The notes beneath the pieces are model-generated. The model saw nothing but the letters and a program-made list of their open reading frames with translations. It had not been told where the DNA came from and did no database searches. The translations under genes and the position numbers were made by a program. From contig JBCLBO010000001.1 in the NCBI GenBank assembly GCA_038916785.1, positions 69,987 to 133,986 on the forward strand: 64,000 bases of DNA, written 5' to 3'. Below, in pieces: positions 1-35,217 of the stretch (its first letter is position 1; each line of letters opens with the position of its first letter). Origin of the DNA: Candidatus Hydrogenedentales bacterium (GTDB lineage: Bacteria; Hydrogenedentota; Hydrogenedentia; Hydrogenedentales; GCA-2746185).

Positions 1-1076
1 CACGGTCGCTTCTCGCGGACTGTTGCGGACTTTTCAAGAAAGCATTCATTCAGTCGGTGAAAGCCTTTCGCTTTCAGCTGCGGAGATCGTTGGCATAGTG
101 GCTGGGCGCTTTTGGGATATCCGTGATTGAGGTGAAGAGTGAATTTTTCTGAATTTACAGCGCCGCTTGGTCTTTTGGCTGCGAATCGGCGGATTGTTAC
201 CTCGATCTTGAAAATACTCAAGTCGGGCCTCGCGTACTGTGAACAATAGCGTGTTTCCAGTTCTATCTCGTCCAGCTTATCTTCCAAAAAGTCGTAGAAA
301 CTCATGCGCTCGCCCTTGATTGTAACGACGAGTTCATGTTGTTCGGGATAGACGCTGTAGACCAAAAAGAGAGATCCCTCTCGTAACTCAAAGCGGGAAA
401 AACTCTTGGCATAGGCATGAGCAAGCTTGCTTGCGTCAGAAATTCGGTGGCCATTGGCAACATTCTTTGGAACGCGCTCTTCGTTTTCGGAAAGTTCGTC
501 GCCGAGTCGGAGCATTGCTGCAAGTAGCAATAGTCGTGGAGGACCTATACCGTCTACTTCGATACTCCGAAAAGTGTCCTTGTCATACTCGGGATGGGAG
601 CCACCGTGGACACGCGCTACGTCGTAGATTTGCTGCGTCGCCGCAGGTACGAACAGGTCTTTGTGATCTTGGATAACGACGTAGCACCGGTCGGCATGGT
701 CCTTTCGTTTGACAACATTTTGCGCATCGTGTACGTGCGCAGCGGACAGCAGAATATATGCTTCCAATGGAGAGATTGGAGTTCCTGGCGTGCTAGTCGC
801 CTCTTCAGCCAACTTGTCGAGGCTCTTGATCAGATCGAAAATATGTTGACACCCGTGAACGGTGTAGAGGTTGGGGGCAGTTCCGTCACTTCTCGTCAAT
901 TCACTCATAGCCAAGCCCAAATCAACGTATGGGTGTTTACTGGCAAAGAAGGAAGTCTCAAGCGCGCGAAAAAAATTCAGATACGTTTGGGCTTCGGCAT
1001 GATCAGGATCCGTAACATTACGGGACGCCTGTTCCAGCAGGGAAACTAGAAAGCCATTTGTTCTGTAAATACTCAT
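1..1076 (-). CDS. HD-superfamily phosphohydrolase (HD-CE-like), 3' end runs off the window; not in the ORF track
   Basis: Manual translation from the ATG at 1076 (ATGA overlap with the MTase stop) gives 358 codons with no stop: MSIYRTNG...NLYTVHGCQHIFDLI...EAYILLSAAHVHDAQN...ARVHGG...LLAAMLRLGDELSE, an H...HD...H...D pattern. Confidence 0.8.
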   Translation of the reverse strand, partial: MSIYRTNGFLVSLLEQASRNVTDPDHAEAQTYLNFFRALETSFFASKHPYVDLGLAMSELTRSDGTAPNLYTVHGCQHIFDLIKSLDKLAEEATSTPGTPISPLEAYILLSAAHVHDAQNVVKRKDHADRCYVVIQDHKDLFVPAATQQIYDVARVHGGSHPEYDKDTFRSIEVDGIGPPRLLLLAAMLRLGDELSENEERVPKNVANGHRISDASKLAHAYAKSFSRFELREGSLFLVYSVYPEQHELVVTIKGERMSFYDFLEDKLDEIELETRYCSQYARPDLSIFKIEVTIRRFAAKRPSGAVNSEKFTLHLNHGYPKSAQPLCQRSPQLKAKGFHRLNECFLEKSATVREKRP

Positions 1077-2146
1077 TGGAGCATTATTCCGCGGAAGACA
1101 GCTTCGGATAATTTCGGCGGCACCATATTCCCGACCTGCTGTTGCTGAAATCCTATCGTGCCACTGAAACAGAAATCGTCAGGCACTGATTGAATTCGTG
1201 CAGCTTCGCGAATCGAAAGGCCTCGATTCTCGGTGGGGTGAATTAGCATGTTTTTCCTAAAATTTCCTATCACTACTGATGGCTTTGCAGGATCAAGTCG
1301 GCGGTAAATCCATGCATGGCAACGTTCGCGATCGGTGTAATTCCGAAATAGCGATTCGGGTACGTCCTCCCAGTTTCCGCCAGGAGGCACGTGCCGATAG
1401 CGCTCAATGATGTGTGTAGCGCTTTTCGTCACTAGGTTTCCGCGCACCGTCCGACAACCATTTCGCAAACCCCGGACGTACTTGCTGGTCGCCTTAGCCT
1501 TGTAGGGCAGTTCATCGACATTCGAACCGTTGTCGAGGGTTGGCAAATCCCGAATTGCCGTACGGACCGAGACTGCCTTACCAACATGAGGAGTTGGAAA
1601 ATCATAAGAGTGACCAGTCCGTGAACCAACAAAGAAAGCCCTGGTTCGACTCTGGGGCACTCCGAAGTCGCGAGCATTGAGCAATTGAAAGGCGGTTGTA
1701 TACCCGATTTTCTCCAATGCTTTGAGCACGGAAATTACAAATCGACCGCCTTCGGTCTCAGTGATTCCCTTAACATTTTCCATAACGACCCAATCGGGCT
1801 TCCATTGCTTAACGAGACGCACGAATTCCTTGAATAGCCAATTATTCGGGTTTTGAGCGTTGCGCGTTTTCTGGTTGGAAGTAGAAAACCCTTGACACGG
1901 CGGACCGCCAAAAATTACAGACATCGCACCACGCGGTTTTGGAGGTAGAGTCTTCAAGGCTCTTATGTCGCCAACATGCATCGGGATGTCGGGAAAGTTC
2001 AACTGATAAGTGGCAGCAGCTTTCGAACACTTTTCGACTGCGAAAATGACATCCACTCCGGCTCGCGTGGCTCCTAAAGTCATTCCGCCTGCGCCACAAA
2101 ATAAATCTATGCCGACCAATCTTTTTTGATTTTTCAGTCGATGCAT
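1073..2146 (-). CDS. DNA (cytosine-5)-methyltransferase
   Basis: Motif I DLFCGAGG, catalytic GGPPCQGFS, ENV, QSRTRAF, HP...RGLSIREAARIQ, GNMVPP. Confidence 0.96.
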   Translation of the reverse strand: MHRLKNQKRLVGIDLFCGAGGMTLGATRAGVDVIFAVEKCSKAAATYQLNFPDIPMHVGDIRALKTLPPKPRGAMSVIFGGPPCQGFSTSNQKTRNAQNPNNWLFKEFVRLVKQWKPDWVVMENVKGITETEGGRFVISVLKALEKIGYTTAFQLLNARDFGVPQSRTRAFFVGSRTGHSYDFPTPHVGKAVSVRTAIRDLPTLDNGSNVDELPYKAKATSKYVRGLRNGCRTVRGNLVTKSATHIIERYRHVPPGGNWEDVPESLFRNYTDRERCHAWIYRRLDPAKPSVVIGNFRKNMLIHPTENRGLSIREAARIQSVPDDFCFSGTIGFQQQQVGNMVPPKLSEAVFRGIMLQ

Positions 2147-28203: not shown

Positions 28204-29601
28204 ATGGCCCCTGCACACACGCCCGACACCACTGCGCGCGCGCATGCGGCGCTGGCCGACGCGATCGGCGCGCAGCGCATCTCCGCGTCGAGCGGCGACC
28301 GCGAACAGCACGCGCGTGATCAATCGACGCTGCCGGCGCGGATGCCCGACCTCGTCGTGTGGCCGGAGACGACCGAAGACGTCAGCGCCGTGTTGCGCTA
28401 CGCGAATGAGCACGGGATTCCCGTCGTCGCCTGGGGCGCGGGCACGAGCCTGGAAGGCAATCCCATTCCCGTGCGCGGCGGAATTGTGCTCGACTTCCAG
28501 CGCATGGACCGCGTCGTAGCCGTCCACGCGCAGGACTTCCAGGTCACGGTCCAGCCGGGCGTGCTCTACAAGGACCTCAACCGCGACCTCGGCAAGCAGG
28601 GCCTCTTCTTCGCGCCCGATCCCGGCGCGAACGCCAGCATCGGCGGCATGATTGCGAACAACGCCGCCGGCATCCGCACGGTGAAGTACGGCGCGACGCG
28701 CGACAACGTCCTCGCGCTCGAAGTCGTCCTCGCCGACGGCACCATCGTCCGCACCGGCTCGCGCTCGGTGAAGCAGTCCGCCGGATACGACCTCACGCAC
28801 CTGATCGTCGGCTCCGAGGGCACCCTCGCCATCGTCACCGAGGCCACGCTCAAGCTCGTGCCGATCCCCGAGCACTTCAGCGCGATCGTCGCCGCGTTTC
28901 CCTCCGTCGAGAATGCCGTCGAGGCGGTCTACGCCGTCATGGCTTCCGGCCTCGAGCCCGGCGCGATGGAACTCGTTGACACCTCCGGCATCCTGATGAT
29001 GAACAAGGACGAGGGCATGCACTTCCCCGAACTGCCGCACATCTTCATGGAGTTCAGCGGCCCCGACGCCTCCGGCGTGAAGTCACGCACGGAAGCCGCC
29101 GAGGCCTGCTGCCGCGAGAACCAGTGCGTGCAGCTCGCCGCCGGCCTCGACCGCGAATCGCGCCAACGGCTCTGGGACGCGCGCCACCACTTCTACGAAA
29201 TCCTAATCCGCAACCACCCCGGCCAGGGCCGCTACGTCGCCGACGTCGCCGTCCCCATCTCCCACCTGCCCGAGCTCATCCGCCGCACGCGCGTCATCCT
29301 CGACGAAGTCGGCATCGAAGGCCAGATCATCGGCCACGCCGGCGACGGCAACCTCCACGTCACGCTCTTCTACCCAATGGAAGACGCCGCCGCAGCAGCC
29401 CGCGCCAAAGAAACCAACACCCGCCTAGTCCAGGCCGCCCTCGACCTCGACGGCACCTGCACCGGCGAACACGGCGTAGGCATCGGCAAAATGCACGTAA
29501 TGCAGCGCGAACACGGCGACACCGGCCTCGCCCTAATGAAAGCCATCAAGCAAACGATGGACCCGAAGGGCATCCTCAACCCGGGGAAAGTACTGCCGTA
29601 G
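28204..29601 (+). CDS. FAD-linked oxidase (GlcD/D-lactate dehydrogenase family)
   Basis: GAGTSLEG, ASIGGM, GYDL..L.VGSEGTL, GHAGDGNLH, GEHGVG, DPKGILNPGK. Confidence 0.93.
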   Translation: MAPAHTPDTTARAHAALADAIGAQRISASSGDREQHARDQSTLPARMPDLVVWPETTEDVSAVLRYANEHGIPVVAWGAGTSLEGNPIPVRGGIVLDFQRMDRVVAVHAQDFQVTVQPGVLYKDLNRDLGKQGLFFAPDPGANASIGGMIANNAAGIRTVKYGATRDNVLALEVVLADGTIVRTGSRSVKQSAGYDLTHLIVGSEGTLAIVTEATLKLVPIPEHFSAIVAAFPSVENAVEAVYAVMASGLEPGAMELVDTSGILMMNKDEGMHFPELPHIFMEFSGPDASGVKSRTEAAEACCRENQCVQLAAGLDRESRQRLWDARHHFYEILIRNHPGQGRYVADVAVPISHLPELIRRTRVILDEVGIEGQIIGHAGDGNLHVTLFYPMEDAAAAARAKETNTRLVQAALDLDGTCTGEHGVGIGKMHVMQREHGDTGLALMKAIKQTMDPKGILNPGKVLP

Positions 29602-29606
29602 AGCAC

Positions 29607-29638
29607 TTTAGCCACGGATAAGTACGGATTGGACGGAT
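29607..29638 (+). repeat. Left imperfect inverted repeat bounding the island
   Basis: TTTAGCCACGGATAAGTACGGATTGGACGGAT; 27/32 identical to the reverse complement of 35186-35217. Confidence 0.8.
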
Positions 29639-29957
29639 TGCCACCCCACGAACTGCTGGAACTGAACGCCAGTCGTGGACGGGATTCGGCCGTAGAAACC
29701 TCCTACATAGATGCGCAGTCTGTTGCCCTCGGGTCGGCGCGGAAACCGGGGAAAACTCTCGGTGCGAAACAAGGTCTTGGAGTGGACCTCACGGACGAAG
29801 CGGACTTCGTTGGGAAGAGCGGGTGCGAGACAAGGGTCCTTTGCTTGTCAGTACTGGGAAAATTTCGACGAAAGTGCAACAGGACGTGGCGTGTCTGCGC
29901 AAGCGAACACGGTAAGATTTGACAGGGAACTGTCAGCGCCGTATCCTCCACCTCAAT

Positions 29958-30290
29958 ATGACTGAGAATACTGAAATCTTAAAGGAAATCCGCGATCTTC
30001 TACGACTGATGGCCGAGCCTGTGCTCGCGAAGCGCGATGAACGACTTCGGTCATCGCTTCACGAGGTCATAGGAAAGAGTAAACAGAAAGCCCAGGCGGT
30101 CGTTCTCATGGACGGGATGCGCTCACAAGCTGCCATTCGAAAGGACTGCGGGATCGACGATGGAAATTTGAGCCGCTTGGTCAAGGCATTGCGCGCGGCG
30201 GAATTGATCGGTTCAGACAACAAACACCCTAAATTGGTGTTTCCCGTGCCTGCGAATCTCCCCGATACTGTTTCTAAGGATAAAGGATGA
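29958..30290 (+). CDS. Small helix + winged-HTH protein, paralog 1
   Basis: LKEIRDLLRL..EP, MDGMRSQ..I...CGI..GNLSRLVK.L..AELI. Confidence 0.85.
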   Translation: MTENTEILKEIRDLLRLMAEPVLAKRDERLRSSLHEVIGKSKQKAQAVVLMDGMRSQAAIRKDCGIDDGNLSRLVKALRAAELIGSDNKHPKLVFPVPANLPDTVSKDKG

Positions 30291-30634
30291 GCGCCGAATC
30301 CGCACAAATGATGCGCGTATTAACAGAGATGCGCGATCTTCTCCGTCTGATCGCTGAGCCAGCTATCGCCGAGCGCGATGAGAAACTACGAAAAAAATTG
30401 CGCGATATTGCCGGAAGTGCAACGGGGAAAAAGGCGAAGGCCATTCTTATGATGGATGGTACAAGGAATCAGGCAGGGATCGTCAGCGAGTGTGGAATAA
30501 ACCAGGGCGATCTGAGCCAGTTGGTGAAAAAGTTAAAGGCTGCGGAACTACTGGCAGGCGGTCCCAAACAGCCACAACTCGTTATTTCAATTCCCATAAA
30601 TTTCTTCGAACAGAAAGAGAACTCTGATGAGTGA
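30287..30634 (+). CDS. Small helix + winged-HTH protein, paralog 2
   Basis: LTEMRDLLRLIAEP, MDGTRNQ..I..ECGINQGDLSQLVKKLKAAELL; ATGA overlap. Confidence 0.85.
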   Translation: MSAESAQMMRVLTEMRDLLRLIAEPAIAERDEKLRKKLRDIAGSATGKKAKAILMMDGTRNQAGIVSECGINQGDLSQLVKKLKAAELLAGGPKQPQLVISIPINFFEQKENSDE

Positions 30635-30968
30635 CGATTCCAGCGAACTCCTGGAGACTGTCCGTAAGATTTACGGATTATTGGAACTGCTCGCAGAAGA
30701 AAAGATTGCTCAGTGCGATGCCAAGCAGCGCGCCGAACTTCGCGAGATCGTCGGATCCAGCAAGCCCAAACAAAAATCAATCTTCCTAATGGATGGCACG
30801 CGGAATCAGAAACAAATCCACGAAAAGACATCAGTCAATCGGGGCCATTTGAGCACGATGGTTGGAAAACTACACAAAGCAAAGTTGCTTGTTGGTGACA
30901 CAGCTAAACCTCATTTGGCCATTTCGATACCCTCTACATTTTTTGAAGCCAATGCAAAAACAGAGTGA
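30627..30968 (+). CDS. Small helix + winged-HTH protein, paralog 3
   Basis: LETVRKIYGLLELLAE, MDGTRNQKQI...TSVNRGHLSTMVGKL; 8-nt overlap. Confidence 0.85.
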   Translation: MSDDSSELLETVRKIYGLLELLAEEKIAQCDAKQRAELREIVGSSKPKQKSIFLMDGTRNQKQIHEKTSVNRGHLSTMVGKLHKAKLLVGDTAKPHLAISIPSTFFEANAKTE

Positions 30969-31298
30969 CGACAAGCTGTTGGAAGTACTAGTCGAAATTC
31001 GCAACTGGATTCGCGTGGCGGCGCACGTCCGGTGAAGACTTTGCTCGAAGCAGCGCTTCCCGACTCGAAATCGCGCATGGCATACCAGATGCTCGACGGC
31101 GGCGTGTCAATGGACCAAGTGCGCATCGCTTGCAAGTTGAGCCCGAACGCTTTAGTCGCCATGGCGAACCGCTGCGCCTCAATGGGCCTAATGGAGATCA
31201 ACCACGACAACGACAAGAAGCGCCTTAGGCTCTTCGACTTGGCCGATTTTGGTCTAGTTGGTCTTAGCGAGTCGACTAAATCAGGAGAGAAGTCGTGA
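30952..31298 (+). pseudogene. Small helix + winged-HTH protein, paralog 4, with an apparent 1-nt frameshift near 31027
   Basis: ATG 30952 gives MQKQSDDKLLEVLVEIRNWIRVAAH then a stop at 31033-35; the -1 frame continues PVKTLLEAAL...MLDGGVSMDQV...GLME. Confidence 0.7.
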
Positions 31299-31693
31299 GC
31301 GACAAGCGACTCAAGAAGGATGCGGTCGAGGTCTCGTCACAACCGATTCTAGATGAGCTTGTCGCAATCAAAGATCGTTTGAACGCCATCGAGACGATTC
31401 AGAGTATCTCCAACGCGTCAGTTGTGAGAAAATATGTTGAAGAGCACCTTAAGACAAAGGACGCGAGAAAAATAATGACTGAATGCGAAACACCTCGAAC
31501 TCGCTCCCATTTGCAAACGCATTTCGCTTATAAAAGTGGTCCAGCTCTTGATTATCACCTAAAGCCGCTACGTGAAGCCGACCTATTGCGTCAGGCGATT
31601 GAAGAGCATGGCACCATCGTTTTTGAGTGGAGTAATCTCTTTCGGCGGCTTCCGAAATCTGCGATCAAGGGTATTCTCGCCGGTGGCAATTGA
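31295..31693 (+). CDS. Small helix + winged-HTH protein (ArsR-like HTH), member 5
   Basis: ILDELVAIKDRL, ..PALDYHLKPLREADLL; GTGA overlap, GGAGA RBS. Confidence 0.8.
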   Translation: MSDKRLKKDAVEVSSQPILDELVAIKDRLNAIETIQSISNASVVRKYVEEHLKTKDARKIMTECETPRTRSHLQTHFAYKSGPALDYHLKPLREADLLRQAIEEHGTIVFEWSNLFRRLPKSAIKGILAGGN

Positions 31694-31717
31694 TTCCTGA
31701 CATCCGAGCCCGTAGCT

Positions 31718-32275
31718 ATGGCCAATAAGAAGGCTGAATCGAAACCAAGCGAGCGTAAGAAACTTCCTGTCAAAACGCGCGATCTACTTCTAACCGAATG
31801 CGGCTACCGTTGCGCAGTGCCTACTTGCCGGAACATCCTCGCTTTGGACATGCATCACATCTGGGAAGTGCAAGCAGGCGGCCCTGACGACCCGTCAAAT
31901 CTTATTGCGCTGTGCTCATACTGTCATGACATGTACCATCGCGGCAATATCACTGCCGAATCCGTTTACACTTACAAGGCGATGCTAGTCGCTATTTCGC
32001 GAGCATTCGATATTGATGCCATCGATAGATTGTTGTTCCTGGATTTATGCGCGGAGGACTTACTAGTGGTATCTGGCGACGGTCTGCTGCACTTCGGGCG
32101 TCTAATCGCGGCTGGACTGGCGACCTTTCAGCAAAAGGCGAACAACAACTGGCAGATCGTGACCTACACCGTGAACATTTCAGACAAGGGTCACCAAATC
32201 ATTGACGCTTGGAAACAGGGCGATCGCACGCGACTGAAAACTGTGATGGGCGGGCCGGTGCCGGGCGGGGGTTAA
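31718..32275 (+). CDS. HNH endonuclease (Zn-binding) with a C-terminal extension
   Basis: RCAVPTC...MHHI...GG....NLIALCSYCHDMYH. Confidence 0.92.
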   Translation: MANKKAESKPSERKKLPVKTRDLLLTECGYRCAVPTCRNILALDMHHIWEVQAGGPDDPSNLIALCSYCHDMYHRGNITAESVYTYKAMLVAISRAFDIDAIDRLLFLDLCAEDLLVVSGDGLLHFGRLIAAGLATFQQKANNNWQIVTYTVNISDKGHQIIDAWKQGDRTRLKTVMGGPVPGGG

Positions 32276-32382
32276 CCTGTGTATCTGGGAAGACGCTAAC
32301 CCGGGTCTGAAAGATCATCAAGCGGGCCGCTAGCTACAGCCGGCGCATGTGAACTGCAGTGTCGGGCCGATGGAGAGAGGTC

Positions 32383-32798
32383 ATGAAACGCACTTGGACG
32401 ATCATCGGTGTACGCGACGTGCCGCGTAGCTTCAACTGGTATCAGTTGCTCTTCGGCCAGCCTGAGACACCACCGGGCCATACCTACTTTGGTCAGATCC
32501 TCGATTCGGATGGAACGGTCTTGCTCTGTCTTCACCAATGGGGCGCGCACGAGCACCCGTCGTTGATGATCCCAGATGCGGCGACGCCCGGCAACGGGCT
32601 CCTCTTGTTCTTTCGTGTCGACGATTTCGATAGGGCCCTGAAACGGGACGCGCGCTCGTCGCCCGGTTCGAAGAGGAGCGGCACGTGAACCCGAATACTC
32701 GAACGCAGGAGTTCTCACTCCGGGATCCAGACGGATATTACGTCACCATCAGCGCGTTCTCTTCGCTCGAATTAGAGGGCCCCGGGACGCCGGCCTAA
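32383..32798 (+). pseudogene. VOC/glyoxalase family protein, frameshifted near 32650
   Basis: MKRTWTIIGVRDV..S..WY..LFG...GNGLLLFFRVDDFD/fs/EFSLRDPDGYYVTI; stop TAA lies inside GCCTAAC. Confidence 0.8.
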
Positions 32799-32854
32799 CA
32801 AACGCATGCAGTCGACCCATAAAGTGTAGATCGCATTATGGAGCACCCTGTGCC

Positions 32855-32944
32855 ATGGTCTTTATCGACACATCCAAACTAAAAATCATCGAGCGCAAGC
32901 CCGGCTGGTTCGGCCGCTATTTCCATTCGTCGAACATAACCTGA
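32855..32944 (+). repeat. Direct repeat copy 1 (cupin-like gene 5' fragment)
   Basis: MVFIDTSKLKIIERKPGWFGRYFHSSNIT*; near-identical to 34319-34410. Confidence 0.75.
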
Positions 32945-32952
32945 GCGCCGTA

Positions 32953-34122
32953 TCAAAAAAGATCAACGGTGCCCGACGCGACCTCGCCCCACGGAACAAT
33001 CTCGATGGCGGAAGATAGTCGTCGGCGCTCTTGCGACATTGAAATCACGATACCCCGGCGTAATCCCAAGTCCTTCATGCAGCTTTGCAAGCCTGCCACA
33101 TCGTATTGATTCACCGTCGTGCTTAGCTTGATCTCGATGGCTAAGACCCTCCGCCCGTCGACCACCAGCAAATCGACCTCCGCACCTGCCTGGGTGCGCC
33201 AGAAATAAAACTCCGGCCGGACCAAGCTGCGCGTGGCGAGGCTGATAATTTCCTCGATGACCAAGCCCTCGAACGACGCGCCACGCTTGGGCCAGGTCTT
33301 CAGTTCGTCCGGGCGGCGCAGGCCCGCCAGGAAATGCAGCAGGCCGCTGTCGCGTACGTAGAGTTTGGGGCTCTTCGTCAAGCGCTTCTGCACATTGGCG
33401 AAATACGGCTGAAGACGCCGGATCATGTACGCGCCTTCAAGCACATCCAGGTCGTGCGATACCGTGGGCGATGTGACGGTCAGCGATCGCGCGAGGTCGG
33501 AGACGTTCAACAAATTCCCATGGACGTGTGTGAGCATCGTCCACAGTCTGCGGAGTCGCCGCTGCGGAAGCCCAAGACCGAGCGCGGGAAGGTCCCGCTC
33601 CAGAAACGTCGATACGTACGCGCCAAACCACTCCTGACGTGCACGCGCGTTGCGCAGTGCGTGAATGGGAGGGTACCCGCCCCAGAACCAGCGGTCCGCC
33701 GCGTGCCGGGTTTTCGTCAATTCCATGGACGTAAACGGAGTAAGTTCAAGCAGCGCGATGCGACCCGCAAGCGTCTCTGACACGGACCGCATGAGTTCCG
33801 GGCTGGCGGATCCAAGCAGGACAAACCGGCCCTTCCGCGCCGACCGATCGATCATGTGGCGCAACACCGGGAAGACTTCAGGCAGGCGTTGCGCCTCATC
33901 AAGTATCACTTTGCTCGAATGTTCGTCGAGAAATCCTTCGAGATCGGCCTCCAAAAGCGCTACGTCGGAGGGCCGCTCGAGATCAAGATATGTCCAGTCC
34001 GGAAGTGCGTGGCGCACGAGTGTGCTCTTCCCGCACTGGCGCGGACCCAGCAGAAGCACCGCCGGGAAGTCGCGCAGTAGCTGGCGAAGGCGATCGACCT
34101 GATATCGGGAGATGTATCGCAT
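32953..34122 (-). CDS. AAA_14 ATPase with DUF4143 and a C-terminal PD-(D/E)xK-like domain
   Basis: GPRQCGKST, ILDEAQ, LLGSAS, ETLAGR, GGYP, KSPKLY..DSG, FWRT..GAEVDL...IEIK. Confidence 0.93.
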   Translation of the reverse strand: MRYISRYQVDRLRQLLRDFPAVLLLGPRQCGKSTLVRHALPDWTYLDLERPSDVALLEADLEGFLDEHSSKVILDEAQRLPEVFPVLRHMIDRSARKGRFVLLGSASPELMRSVSETLAGRIALLELTPFTSMELTKTRHAADRWFWGGYPPIHALRNARARQEWFGAYVSTFLERDLPALGLGLPQRRLRRLWTMLTHVHGNLLNVSDLARSLTVTSPTVSHDLDVLEGAYMIRRLQPYFANVQKRLTKSPKLYVRDSGLLHFLAGLRRPDELKTWPKRGASFEGLVIEEIISLATRSLVRPEFYFWRTQAGAEVDLLVVDGRRVLAIEIKLSTTVNQYDVAGLQSCMKDLGLRRGIVISMSQERRRLSSAIEIVPWGEVASGTVDLF

Positions 34123-34318
34123 ACCTTGTATTATTATACATTAACTTTTAAAATGCAAGGTATGTTTTTGGCGAGAGAACCTTGAAATTCCGAGGGCGAC
34201 CTTCGAATTTTCAAGGTTCACAAGTACCCACTAACGGCGGCAAACCCTCTATTTCGGTCGACTTTCAGAGAGGCGCGGCACTGTATATGTTGTAGACCGG
34301 CGTACGGAGCTCTGCCGC

Positions 34319-34440
34319 ATGCCCTTCATCAACACATCCAAACTAAAAGTCATCGAGCGCAAGCCCGGCTGGTTCGGGCGCTACTTCCATTCGCCGAGCA
34401 TGACCTTCGTGCATTAGGAGTTGAGAAGGGATCGCATCCA
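34319..34440 (+). pseudogene. Direct repeat copy 2, cupin-like gene remnant
   Basis: MPFINTSKLKVIERKPGWFGRYFHSPSMTFVH* then decays. Confidence 0.65.
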
Positions 34441-34998
34441 GCGCTACCTTGAAATCTCGAAGGACGCCGCCGAAATTTCAAGGTACCCGTTTTCGATGGT
34501 TTTCCGGAACTGGCTCTCATAAAAGCCGTTCTCACGTCGCGGTCCGCCCCGCGCCAAACAGCCCCAGCCTCACACGGGTGGGGCGGGCGTCCTCGCCCGC
34601 CTTGAATCCCTGCCTCAGGGGACCCGCGCAAGTGCGGCAAATCCTTGTTGCACTTTTGAGCGCGCTTTCACAGTTTCGCCAATCAAATTACCCTTGTTCC
34701 GCGCTCTCAACAGGAACGCGGCCTTCGACGATGTTCGACGCACATTTTCGCGCCCCATTGTTTCCCAGCGTCCGCGCCGGCTCGCCCACCCTTGTTCCGC
34801 ACCTCGTCATTTCCCGTCAGTTCCCCAGTGCAACAAGCCGCCCACTCTATAGAGGACGTCACGCGGGCCACGATGCCCGCGCCACCTACTTTCTTTCTGA
34901 GTAGAAAGAAAGTAGGCAAAGAAAGACTGGTTCGCAGACCGATCGCGGGTGGGCGCAAAGAGCGAGATGCTTCGCTGCTAAGAAAGTAGTGGGTCGTT

Positions 34999-35069
34999 GT
35001 AGGGGCGGCCCCCTGTGGCCGCCCTGGGACTCCGGCGTGCACCGGGCGGGGACGGGGCCCCGCCCCCAC
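34999..35069. repeat. REP doublet (GTAG/GTGG-footed palindromes)
   Basis: GTAGGGGCGGCCCCCTGTGGCCGCCCT, nearly identical to 40701-40727, plus an inverted related unit. Confidence 0.75.
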
Positions 35070-35185
35070 GATCGCGGGGTACGCTTTCTTGACACAAACT
35101 CCGGCGATGGCCGGTGCGGAACTCAGAACGACAAAAACCAGGGAGGATCACGGACTATCGTTGCAGGCTATGTCAGTGGGATGTG

Positions 35186-35217
35186 ATCCGTCAAATCCGT
35201 GTCGATCCGTGGCTAAA
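35186..35217 (-). repeat. Right imperfect inverted repeat bounding the island
   Basis: ATCCGTCAAATCCGTGTCGATCCGTGGCTAAA. Confidence 0.8.

What the first reader, a model, noticed from the sequence alone, without database searches (positions are those of the whole stretch)
29958..32275. Operon of five related small helix+winged-HTH proteins ending in an HNH nuclease: candidate undescribed defence/conflict system
Seen in sequence: five consecutive 110-132 aa ORFs with overlapping start/stop codons (4, 8, 17 and 4 nt). Each begins with an amphipathic helix (LKEIRDLLRL / LTEMRDLLRL / LETVRKIYGLLEL / LVEIRNWIRV / LVAIKDRL) followed by a wHTH-like unit. ORFs 1-3 share MDG.R(S/N)Q..I....G.LS..V..L..A.L.G...P.L...P; ORF4 has MLDG. 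A Zn-HNH endonuclease follows 24 nt later, and its C-terminal half (LIAAGL...YTVNISDKG..I..W) also looks wHTH-like. The block is visibly lower in GC than the backbone. I do not recognise this architecture among named defence or toxin-antitoxin systems. Inference: diverged, translationally coupled paralogs suggest a stoichiometric hetero-oligomer, assembled through the N-terminal helices, that presents several DNA- or protein-sensing wHTH heads and restrains or triggers the HNH subunit.
Basis: partly seen in the sequence, partly recalled or inferred. Interest (0 to 1): 0.88.

Follow-up and report, generated by a model that had tools for sequence, protein, structure and literature searches.

The report
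Mobile wHTH-array plus HNH nuclease cassette
A small, self-contained gene cassette of several related DNA-binding-type proteins followed by a DNA-cutting enzyme has spread between distant soil bacteria, matches no described system, and is a reasonable but unproven candidate for a new bacterial defence or conflict module.

Summary
Window 29958-32275 carries five tightly packed small genes and a Zn-HNH nuclease gene with their own promoter, at GC 0.51 in a 0.60-0.63 backbone. Two corrections apply. ORF4 is broken by a one-base gap. Only ORF1-3 are clear paralogues; ORF4 is a weak one, and ORF5 and the HNH tail are wHTH-like only by fold or weak hits.

The cassette is conserved. 15 of 17 evaluable genome loci, from at least six phyla, have an ORF5-type gene upstream of the HNH gene. 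49 of 50 metagenome loci have the HNH gene next to ORF5. Proteins are 65-87% identical, dN/dS is 0.06-0.19 where measurable, and flanks are unrelated.

The number of small genes varies from 2 to 5. The nuclease gene stands alone in two genomes and is inverted in four loci. A fixed six-part complex is therefore unproven, and the complex prediction gave no verdict.

No Pfam (at threshold), NCBIfam or PHROGs family fits the small proteins, and no PADLOC system fits any of the six. The HNH domain is closest to the McrA-type type IV restriction enzymes. Best reading: an uncharacterised restriction-like conflict cassette, confidence 0.42.

The parts
29919..29947 (+). sigma-70-type promoter of the cassette (TTGACA, 17 nt, TATCCT), 10 nt before the ORF1 start codon
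   Evidence: 10 of 12 matches, best site in 29500-32700. The same TTGACAGG...GTATyCT arrangement lies before the first gene in L006, L071, L078 and L101. Conservation between loci begins only about 45 nt before the ATG.
29958..30290 (+). ORF1 (O1), 110 aa, N-terminal helix + wHTH; always the first gene of the array
   Evidence: The O1 clade holds only first-position genes in the tree. 84% identical to the L006 orthologue.
30287..30634 (+). ORF2 (O2), 115 aa, helix (3-42) + ArsR/MarR-like wHTH
   Evidence: AF2 pLDDT 84. VIA best Z 7.0 to TFE-alpha and 6.8 to SmtB. 302 homologues among 324 candidates; the 119 listed besides the window's own protein are 67-79% identical.
30627..30968 (+). ORF3 (O3), 113 aa, paralogue of O2 from a duplication within one sublineage
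30952..31035 (+). ORF4 N-terminal fragment (27 aa, the helix), ending at a premature stop caused by a frameshift
   Evidence: one-base gap after 31026 relative to L010, L011, L012 and L014.
31032..31298 (+). ORF4 C-terminal fragment (88 aa from a GTG, the wHTH part with the MLDG motif)
   Evidence: Intact orthologues are 110-122 aa. hhalign to O1/O2 gives probability 71-82%.
31295..31693 (+). ORF5 (O5), 132 aa, basic tail + helix + ArsR-like wHTH; lies beside the HNH gene in 49 of 50 evaluable metagenome loci
   Evidence: (HTH_20 E 0.0025, below threshold).
31718..32275 (+). HNH-wHTH nuclease gene, 185 aa
   Evidence: Pfam HNH E 2.7e-10. 988 homologues among 1276 candidates; the 119 listed besides the window's own protein are 72-87% identical.
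31799..31942 (+). Zn-finger HNH catalytic core (residues 28-75: C32, C37, H46, H47, N61, C66, C69, H70, H74)
   Evidence: These residues are invariant, or nearly so for C69, in 38 sequences. Closest solved sequences are ScoMcrA 5zmm (E 2.5e-5) and EcoKMcrA 6ghc (E 3e-5).
32003..32233 (+). C-terminal winged helix-turn-helix domain of the nuclease (residues 96-172)
   Evidence: AF2 block pLDDT 74-90 over residues 101-170. VIA Z 7.3, rmsd 1.9 A, 64 residues aligned to 2jtv; Z 7.2 to MarR-DNA 5h3r.

Best explanation
This is a self-contained, horizontally transferred conflict cassette of about 2.35 kb, most likely restriction-like.

Shown:
- One sigma-70-type promoter lies 10 nt before the first gene of a tightly packed array of small, mildly basic proteins. 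Each has position-specific identity: O1, O2/O3, O4, O5.
- An N-terminal helix plus an ArsR/MarR-like winged helix is modelled for O2, and inferred from sequence and weak hits for the other small proteins.
- After a short spacer comes a 185-aa nuclease with an intact McrA-type Zn-HNH core and its own C-terminal winged helix.
- All genes are under purifying selection.
- The cassette is rare among species-representative genomes, sporadic, and found in at least six phyla with unrelated flanks.

Inferred:
- The HNH-wHTH protein is the effector. It cuts DNA that its winged helix, and those of the small proteins, recognise.
- The small proteins are DNA-binding partner subunits. They either direct the nuclease to particular DNA (foreign, modified or structured) or keep it off the host's own DNA.
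- They probably associate through their long N-terminal helices.

The benefit to the host would be exclusion of phages, plasmids or other incoming DNA.
For: (1) Conserved linkage. 15 of 17 evaluable genome loci have an O5-type gene directly upstream of the HNH gene. 49 of 50 metagenome loci found through O5, with at least 650 nt downstream, have the HNH gene next to it.

(2) Purifying selection on all six genes. dN/dS is 0.06-0.19 in the 15 of 36 pairs whose synonymous sites are not saturated; the other 21 pairs are saturated.

(3) Horizontal spread as a unit. Cassette GC is 0.51-0.58 in 10 loci whose flanks are 0.55-0.68; three other loci differ in cassette or flank GC (L019 0.43, L010, and the window, whose right flank is 0.60). 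Apart from a DUF1801 gene directly downstream in L006 and L009, no flanking gene is shared next to the cassette across 19 loci. Hosts include Alphaproteobacteria, Planctomycetota, Acidobacteriota, Chloroflexota, a Patescibacteria member and Gammaproteobacteria. Only the source genome itself was positive among 135 genomes of the window's phylum and among 401 of the phylum of L017 (an Acidobacteriota MAG by its record title). A clean empty site shows a 3,467-nt insertion between two abutting genes.

(4) The nuclease looks active. Zn-binding Cys and the H/N/H residues are invariant or nearly so in 38 sequences. Its HNH domain is nearest to the type IV restriction enzymes ScoMcrA and EcoKMcrA, to NCBIfam PT-DNA_restrict (5.4e-8, below cut-off) and to PADLOC mREase_IV (2.5e-5).

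(5) Fusions of a winged helix with HNH, GIY-YIG, PD-(D/E)XK or PLD nucleases are experimentally shown modification-dependent restriction enzymes (PMC11037411, abstract and passages read).

(6) Fold and charge fit nucleic-acid binding.

(7) Variable-hotspot context. At the orthologous position a close relative of R. palustris BisB18 carries a low-GC NACHT NTPase gene, and a close relative of the Devosia host a low-GC KAP NTPase gene. In the window the neighbour is a DUF4143 ATPase matching PADLOC candidate PDC-S01 (E 2.7e-101), inside a 5.6-kb stretch that had no match in the same-genus genomes searched.

(8) Small-gene junctions overlap (median -5 nt, n=196), whereas O5 to HNH has a median +28 nt spacer (n=62).
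Against: - No functional data exist, and no known defence family matches the small proteins.
- Defence-island association is weak. Of 141 neighbouring proteins scanned against PADLOC at E<=1e-8, the listed families map to a few proteins: MzaA in 3 members and one member each for the rest, with 16 of the 25 rows being PD-T4-6 kinase models. Ten large neighbours checked singly gave one hit.
- Many cassettes sit among housekeeping genes, for example after groEL in L019.
- At a third hotspot (L017 against G203) the alternative content is not obviously defence-related.
- The array size varies from 2 to 5 genes and O4 is dispensable in 5 of 39 arrays.
- The nuclease occurs alone in 2 genomes, so the small proteins are not strictly needed for its tolerance or activity.
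- No tblastn hit was found in the phage or plasmid collections.
- The window's own O4 is frameshifted, so this copy may be partly decayed.
Confidence: 0.42

Rival explanations
1. Addiction (toxin-antitoxin-like) module. The HNH nuclease is a toxin. The small helix-wHTH proteins are labile antitoxins and/or autorepressors that bind it or its promoter. The cassette persists and spreads because its loss kills the cell, and any phage exclusion would work by abortive infection.
For: - It is a small autonomous cassette with its own promoter, sporadic distribution and insertion between housekeeping genes without any mobility gene.
- The DNA-binding-type small proteins lie upstream of an enzyme gene, as in type II TA operons.
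- The small genes are tightly coupled.
- A promoter-overlapping inverted repeat (TGACAG-N4-CTGTCA) in the window could be an operator.
Against: - The nuclease gene exists alone in 2 of 17 evaluable genome loci, and with inverted orientation in 4 of 50 metagenome loci. This is hard to reconcile with a toxin that needs co-expressed antitoxins.
- Two to five different, position-specific 'antitoxins' kept under purifying selection are not a TA feature.
- The inverted repeat is not conserved in other loci.
- One array (L124) lacks the nuclease.
Confidence: 0.18
2. The HNH-wHTH protein is an autonomous single-chain nuclease, either a type IV modification-dependent enzyme or a site-specific one. The small wHTH proteins are only transcription regulators of the cassette or of host genes, not subunits.
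For: - Solo HNH-wHTH genes occur in L020 and L022, and a 42%-identical full-length relative without the array lies in a viral contig (L034).
- Single-chain winged helix-nuclease fusions work alone as restriction enzymes (PMC11037411).
- A short spacer precedes the HNH gene in most loci (median +28 nt, range -11 to +80).
- Convergent orientation occurs in 4 loci.
- The small proteins resemble ArsR/MarR repressors in fold.
Against: - O5 and the HNH gene are adjacent in 49 of 50 loci.
- The O1-3 family has only 163 clusters in 1.84 billion representatives. 148 of the 149 listed representatives checked classify as O1, O2 or O3; one is an O1/HNH chimera and one very long representative was left out. 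No link to other gene contexts was seen in the loci examined.
- Four or five separate regulators for one 185-aa enzyme is unparsimonious.
- The genes are position-specific orthologues under strong constraint.
Confidence: 0.2
3. The cassette has a non-conflict function, such as a niche-specific regulatory or chromatin-like module: nucleoid-associated helix+wHTH proteins with a DNA-processing HNH enzyme used in repair or recombination.
For: - The oligomerising-helix plus DNA-binding-domain plan recalls nucleoid-associated proteins such as Sso10a, which appears among the fold hits at Z 5.8.
- Many loci sit in housekeeping surroundings.
Against: - Extreme sporadic distribution: only the source genome itself in 135 and in 401 genomes.
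- Foreign GC in almost every host.
- Replacement by NACHT or KAP NTPase islands in close relatives.
- It had no match in the same-genus genomes searched.
Confidence: 0.1
4. A purely selfish homing-type element. The HNH enzyme cuts a specific empty site and the cassette is copied in by repair.
For: - HNH enzymes are common homing endonucleases.
- The HNH gene alone forms a roughly 0.55-kb island of foreign GC in two genomes.
- One empty-site comparison shows a precise insertion between two genes.
Against: - Insertion sites and flanks differ in every lineage, so there is no common target.
- The inserted segments also carry other DNA: a DUF1801 gene and host repeats in L006.
- Synonymous sites are mostly saturated between copies, so spread is old rather than an active sweep.
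- Homing does not explain the conserved array.
Confidence: 0.05

Closest known systems
McrA-type type IV restriction endonucleases (EcoKMcrA, PDB 6ghc; ScoMcrA, PDB 5zmm)
   Same: Same subtype of Zn-finger HNH core. These are the two best solved-sequence matches (E 3e-5 and 2.5e-5). The nuclease is joined to a DNA-reader domain, needs no methyltransferase partner and can stand alone.
   Different: The protein is much smaller (185 aa against 287 and 561). It is almost always accompanied by 2-5 small wHTH genes.
Winged helix-nuclease fusion endonucleases (DpnI, HhiV4I, the wH-HNH enzyme SruGXI), 6mA-dependent type IV enzymes (PMC11037411)
   Same: A winged helix is fused to an HNH nuclease in one short chain. 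They are horizontally mobile, usually lack a methyltransferase neighbour, and show restriction by modification sensing (abstract and passages read).
   Different: Those enzymes are wH-HNH (224-283 aa) or PUA-wH-HNH, whereas this one is HNH-wH. A relationship between the winged helices was not shown; DpnI-type chains were not among the 50 listed fold matches, which is inconclusive. Those enzymes are single-chain, and no array of small wHTH genes is described in the passages read (the term 'operon' occurs 0 times in the text).
ArsR/SmtB and MarR families of winged-helix transcription repressors
   Same: Fold of the C-terminal 65-70 residues of O2 and of the HNH tail (Z 6-7). Sub-threshold Pfam hits to MarR_2, HTH_20 and HTH_5. 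Small size and basic charge.
   Different: No Pfam or NCBIfam model reaches its cut-off. A single 40-residue N-terminal helix replaces the usual dimerisation helices. The proteins occur as ordered arrays of 2-5 paralogues next to a nuclease, not as a single autoregulator next to a target operon.
Type II toxin-antitoxin and restriction 'controller' modules
   Same: Small DNA-binding proteins are encoded upstream of, and tightly coupled with, a potentially harmful enzyme on a mobile, promoter-bearing cassette.
   Different: There are several distinct upstream proteins instead of one. The enzyme gene is viable alone in two genomes. No PADLOC or NCBIfam TA family matched at a significant level; the best was TumA at E 0.013 for the O5 N-terminus.

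Membership tests
HNH endonuclease superfamily (Pfam PF01844) | Profile match above the curated cut-off | tested here: met
   40.7 bits against a cut-off of 21.4, E 2.7e-10, residues 28-75.
HNH endonuclease superfamily (Pfam PF01844) | Catalytic His, Asn and His, and the four Zn ligands, are present and conserved | tested here: met
   C32, C37, H46, H47, N61, C66, H70 and H74 are invariant and C69 is at least 90% conserved in 38 sequences.
McrA-type type IV restriction endonuclease | HNH core related to EcoKMcrA/ScoMcrA | tested here: met
   These are the best two solved-sequence hits, E 2.5e-5 and 3e-5, covering only the HNH core. NCBIfam PT-DNA_restrict scores 32.3 bits, below its cut-off of 180.
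McrA-type type IV restriction endonuclease | N-terminal modified-DNA reader (McrA-N, SRA or sulfur-binding domain) | tested here: not met
   Only about 27 residues precede the HNH core. The only other domain is a C-terminal wHTH. No sequence match lies outside the HNH core.
McrA-type type IV restriction endonuclease | Cleavage depends on DNA modification | not testable with these tools
   This needs nuclease assays on modified and unmodified DNA.
wH-nuclease fusion modification-dependent endonucleases (DpnI/HhiV4I/SruGXI type) | Winged helix and nuclease domain in one chain | tested here: met
   HNH core at residues 28-75 plus a wHTH at 96-172. The order is opposite to the described wH-HNH enzymes.
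wH-nuclease fusion modification-dependent endonucleases (DpnI/HhiV4I/SruGXI type) | Winged helix homologous to the 6mA-sensing wH clade | tested here: inconclusive
   The fold hits are generic MarR/PadR/ArsR winged helices at Z 5.5-7.3. DpnI-type chains are not among the 50 rows listed, which does not exclude them.
MarR / ArsR-SmtB transcription factor families | Family profile match at the curated threshold | tested here: not met
   The best scores are MarR_2 at 18.8 bits (cut-off 27), HTH_20 at 18.2 (27) and HTH_5 at 13.5 (22). There are no NCBIfam hits for O1-O3.
MarR / ArsR-SmtB transcription factor families | Winged helix-turn-helix fold | tested here: met
   The O2 model has pLDDT 84 and scores Z 7.0 (TFE-alpha), 6.8 (SmtB) and 6.7 (HlyU). 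This was modelled for O2 only. O1 and O3 follow by homology. O4 and O5 rest on weak sequence evidence.
Any defence system in PADLOC-DB v2.0.0 | Component proteins match the system's models | tested here: not met
   The small proteins have no hit better than E 0.002. The HNH protein has only generic HNH-domain hits (mREase_IV 2.5e-5, DpdF 3.9e-5, ZorE 0.012). DefenseFinder models were not available.
Type II toxin-antitoxin system | The toxin gene is not maintained without its antitoxin gene | tested here: not met
   The HNH-wHTH gene stands alone with an intact frame in L020 and L022.
Freestanding homing endonuclease gene | Insertion at one conserved target site | tested here: not met
   Apart from a DUF1801 gene downstream in L006 and L009, no flanking gene is shared next to the cassette among 19 loci. 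Four lineage comparisons show different sites.

The most novel reading that the evidence does not exclude
A split, combinatorial restriction enzyme. Each small helix-wHTH protein (O1, O2/O3, O4, O5) is a distinct reader of a different DNA feature, such as a base or backbone modification, a structure or a sequence class. Each docks through its N-terminal helix onto the HNH-wHTH nuclease. One small nuclease is thereby aimed by a variable set of 2-5 interchangeable reader subunits, which would be a multi-subunit counterpart of the single-chain reader-nuclease type IV enzymes. The variable array size, the position-specific orthologues, the mosaic recombination between cassettes (O1 and HNH 83% but O5 62% nucleotide identity between the window and L006) and the viable solo nuclease all fit such modularity.
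Probability: 0.12. Interest if true: 0.85.

Novelty: new variant of a known kind. Interest (0 to 1): 0.6.

Why it matters
If the cassette is a defence or restriction-like module, it adds an architecture not found in the catalogues searched here: an ordered array of small winged-helix proteins serving one minimal HNH nuclease. At only 2.3 kb it would be easy to test and to move between hosts.

Its conservation is unusual for conflict genes, which normally diversify fast: 65-87% protein identity from Alphaproteobacteria to Acidobacteriota, Planctomycetota, Chloroflexota and a Patescibacteria member. That points to a conserved, universal target such as a DNA modification or structure.

It also shows how a promoter-bearing cassette without any mobility gene ends up between housekeeping genes in unrelated genomes.

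If the small proteins turn out to be programmable readers for a compact nuclease, they could be of practical use.

If it is only a regulator set plus an ordinary nuclease, the finding is a well-defined new protein family and little more.

Tried and rejected
- Complex prediction: O2 + O4 (L012) + O5 + HNH, each with an alignment and with HNH as partner. The verdict was 'no answer' (score 0.00, mark 0.32) and controls were not run. This is neither support nor evidence against binding.
- Sequencing runs: none was listed for window 29900-32300, and no RNA holder was listed. Read laying was therefore not used. The O4 frameshift could not be checked against reads, and expression could not be examined.
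- Foldseek against PDB gave only weak winged-helix hits (E above 0.1) for both models. The VIA wide search was used instead.
- tblastn of the HNH protein found nothing in the plasmid collection (E limit 1e-10) or the phage collection (E limit 1e-5).
- IMG/VR gave one distant full-length relative and four matches to the HNH core only.
- Rfam and tRNA scans of the whole window found nothing.
- No terminal direct or inverted repeats bound the cassette. An attC-like or transposon-like end was not seen, but it was not searched for with a dedicated model.
- The search for longer fused forms of the small proteins gave one 212-aa tandem form. Among the representatives there was one O1/HNH deletion chimera; other long forms are over-extended ORFs. 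These single cases were not used as evidence of interaction.
- Profile searches of O2 and O5 against solved structures gave nothing below E 0.19.
- The weak O5 N-terminus hits to TumA antitoxin (E 0.013) and PDC-M44A (E 0.0023) were rejected as probable coiled-coil noise.
- The MzaA hits among neighbours (3 members) could not be assigned to loci. My guess at the proteins was wrong, and the point was dropped.
- The inverted repeat over the window's -35 box was rejected as a conserved operator because other loci lack it.
- An integron-cassette reading was considered but not tested.
- Supplementary files of the papers were not consulted. The supplements of PMC11037411, PMC10853773 and PMC12839542 list many HNH architectures and could hold this one.
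- Literature: four searches found no paper describing this array. Only listings were seen, except PMC10853773, PMC12839542 and PMC11037411, of which passages were read. DefenseFinder was not available.

Full report
WHAT IS THERE. Between 29919 and 32275 the window carries a promoter-like site (TTGACA, 17 nt, TATCCT) followed by six tightly spaced genes on the + strand:
- O1, 29958-30290
- O2, 30287-30634
- O3, 30627-30968
- O4, in two pieces: 30952-31035 and 31032-31298
- O5, 31295-31693
- after 24 nt, a 185-aa HNH protein, 31718-32275

GC is 0.507 against 0.631 and 0.601 on the flanks.

O4 is broken. Aligned with four orthologues, the window lacks one base after position 31026. Eleven orthologues are intact. 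I could not tell a real mutation from an assembly error, because no sequencing run was listed.

ARE THE SIX RELATED?
- O1, O2 and O3 are unmistakable paralogues (blastp 1e-22 to 1e-34; hhalign 1e-36 to 1e-45).
- O4 is probably a diverged member (probability 71-82% against O1 and O2, 12% against O3).
- O5 and the C-terminal half of the HNH protein show no profile similarity to the rest.

At fold level the plan is shared. AlphaFold2 gives O2 a 40-residue helix followed by a winged helix (pLDDT 84), with ArsR/SmtB-like matches at Z 6-7. It gives HNH residues 96-172 a winged helix matching MarR-type domains (Z 7.3, rmsd 1.9 A over 64 residues). These Z values are middling and show a common fold, not a family. 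O5 rests on sub-threshold HTH_20 and HTH_5 hits and on language-model neighbours that are ArsR/MarR-like. All six proteins are mildly basic.

THE NUCLEASE. Pfam HNH is met. The Zn ligands and the H-N-H residues are invariant or nearly so in 38 sequences. The nearest solved sequences are ScoMcrA and EcoKMcrA, both type IV restriction enzymes, followed by IscB. NCBIfam's best hits, all below their cut-offs, are IscB and the phosphorothioate-DNA restriction endonuclease.

CONSERVATION AND SPREAD.
- Homologues: the O2 search returned 302 proteins among 324 candidates. The HNH search returned 988 among 1276. The listed ones are 67-87% identical and come from many sources.
- Genome loci: a pattern scan of one genome per species gave 18 loci, in Alphaproteobacteria (including R. 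palustris BisB18 and a Devosia isolate), Planctomycetota, Acidobacteriota, Anaerolineaceae, a Moraniibacteriota MAG, Steroidobacteraceae and a Bordetella MAG.
- Of the 17 evaluable loci (L018 starts inside the HNH gene), 15 have an O5-type gene directly upstream of the HNH gene. Four have the full O1-O2-O3-O4-O5 order. Two (L020, L022) have the HNH-wHTH gene alone.
- Metagenome loci: starting from O5 instead, a metagenome scan gave 121 confirmed loci, of which the best 80 were kept. Of the 50 with at least 650 nt downstream of O5, 45 have the HNH gene on the same strand, 4 have a more divergent HNH-wHTH gene on the opposite strand, and 1 has none.
- Of the 39 arrays complete at the upstream end: 13 are O1-O2-O4-O5, 8 are O1-O3-O4-O5, 5 are O1-O2-O3-O5, 4 have all five, 4 are O2-O4-O5, and 5 have other forms with 2-5 genes.
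- A tree shows that O1 is always the first gene. O2 and O3 arose by a duplication in one sublineage, the one the window belongs to.
- Small-gene junctions overlap (median -5 nt, n=196), while the HNH gene follows O5 after a median of 28 nt (n=62).
- dN/dS is 0.06-0.19 in the 15 of 36 pairwise comparisons where synonymous sites are not saturated. The genes are therefore functional and the copies old.
- Between the window and L006, O1 and HNH are 83% identical in DNA but O5 only 62%, so cassettes recombine.

A MOBILE UNIT WITHOUT MOBILITY GENES.
- Cassette GC stays near 0.51-0.58 in most hosts, whatever the host GC.
- Apart from a DUF1801 gene directly downstream in L006 and L009, flanks share no gene next to the cassette across 19 loci.
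- Sequence similarity between loci starts only about 45 nt before the first ATG, at the promoter.
- The cassette is rare. Only the source genome itself was positive among 135 genomes sampled from the window's phylum and among 401 sampled from the phylum of L017.
- The same-genus relatives that were searched have no match to window 29600-35200, and their flanks lie on different contigs.
- For L006 a relative shows the empty site. There, 3,467 nt (cassette, a DUF1801 gene and host repeats) lie between two genes that otherwise abut.
- In L021 an integrase gene is adjacent, and in L011 an IS66 element. Elsewhere nothing of the kind is present.

CONTEXT.
- At the orthologous position, a close relative of BisB18 has a low-GC 781-aa NACHT protein.
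- A close relative of the Devosia host has a low-GC 1,124-aa KAP NTPase.
- A relative of the L017 host has two unrelated ORFs.
- In the window the next gene (32953-34122, minus strand) is a DUF4143 ATPase that matches PADLOC candidate PDC-S01.
- Against this, a PADLOC scan of 141 neighbouring proteins gave few hits, and many loci are housekeeping.

The defence-island signal is therefore suggestive at most.

WHAT IT IS NOT.
- No PADLOC system fits, and no NCBIfam or PHROGs family fits the small proteins.
- The O1-3 family has only 163 clusters among 1.84 billion representatives. It has no other domain partners apart from two one-off fusions.
- There are no hits in the phage or plasmid collections.
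- Four literature searches found no description.

MOST LIKELY MECHANISM. Winged helix-nuclease fusions are shown to be modification-dependent restriction enzymes (PMC11037411, passages read). wHTH+SRA+HNH proteins are the phosphorothioate- or methyl-sensing McrA type (PMC10853773, passages read).

By analogy, and given the solo copies, I take the HNH-wHTH protein to be a DNA-targeting effector that can work alone. I take the small, co-translated, position-specific helix-wHTH proteins to be DNA-binding partners that aim or gate it.

The shown steps are the gene content, linkage, selection, fold and mobility. Everything about binding, target and phenotype is inferred. The rivals are an addiction module, an autonomous nuclease with mere regulators, a non-conflict role and a homing element. 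They are weighed in their own sections.

VERDICT. This is a real, well-conserved and apparently undescribed cassette. The proposed fixed hetero-oligomer is neither supported nor excluded, and the variable array size and solo nuclease argue for a looser, modular relation. Interest 0.6.

Noticed in passing
window 3-2146 (minus strand): A second low-GC island (GC 0.50) at the window's start holds a C5 cytosine DNA methyltransferase-like ORF (1073-2146; the FCGAGG, PPCQ and ENV motifs are read by eye) and an adjoining ORF of more than 358 aa that runs off the window. It is probably a restriction-modification pair. A 5mC methyltransferase in the same genome bears on what an McrA-like nuclease could tolerate.
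   Followed up: partly
window 32953-34122 (minus strand): A DUF4143/AAA_14 ATPase matches PADLOC candidate PDC-S01 (E 2.7e-101). It lies inside the same 5.6-kb stretch (29600-35200) that had no match in the same-genus genomes searched.
   Followed up: partly
window about 34970-35136 and 34885-34928: A roughly 165-nt repeat is present in at least 8 other contigs of the same genome at 89-93% identity. A roughly 44-nt piece recurs in related genomes. It looks like a REP- or MITE-like element.
   Followed up: no
L047 2078-4423 (minus strand) and L052 1008-4382: Low-GC single-gene islands encode a 781-aa NACHT protein and a 1,124-aa KAP-family NTPase. They occupy, in close relatives, the exact hotspots that hold the cassette in R. 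palustris BisB18 and the Devosia isolate.
   Followed up: partly
L110 2259-2840, L122 1015-1548, L125 4392-5072, L127 1424-2104 (all minus strand): A divergent subfamily of the HNH-wHTH gene lies convergent to the array instead of co-directional.
   Followed up: partly
L006 6226-6576: The O4 orthologue in this long-read MAG reads out of frame for about 25 codons and then returns to frame. This means two compensating frameshifts or sequencing errors.
   Followed up: no
L006 7550-8044 and L009 1576-1866: A DUF1801 gene directly follows the HNH gene in an alphaproteobacterial and a planctomycete locus (66% identity over 71 residues). It may be an occasional seventh gene, or DNA carried over from a donor.
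   Followed up: partly
protein P0301 (172 aa): A natural chimera joins the first 65 residues of an O1 to residues 79-185 of the HNH protein. That amounts to a cassette with everything in between deleted.
   Followed up: no
L034 3290-4000: A 42%-identical full-length HNH-wHTH relative lies in an IMG/VR contig beside a 741-aa ORF (not run against any family library). It has no small wHTH array.
   Followed up: partly
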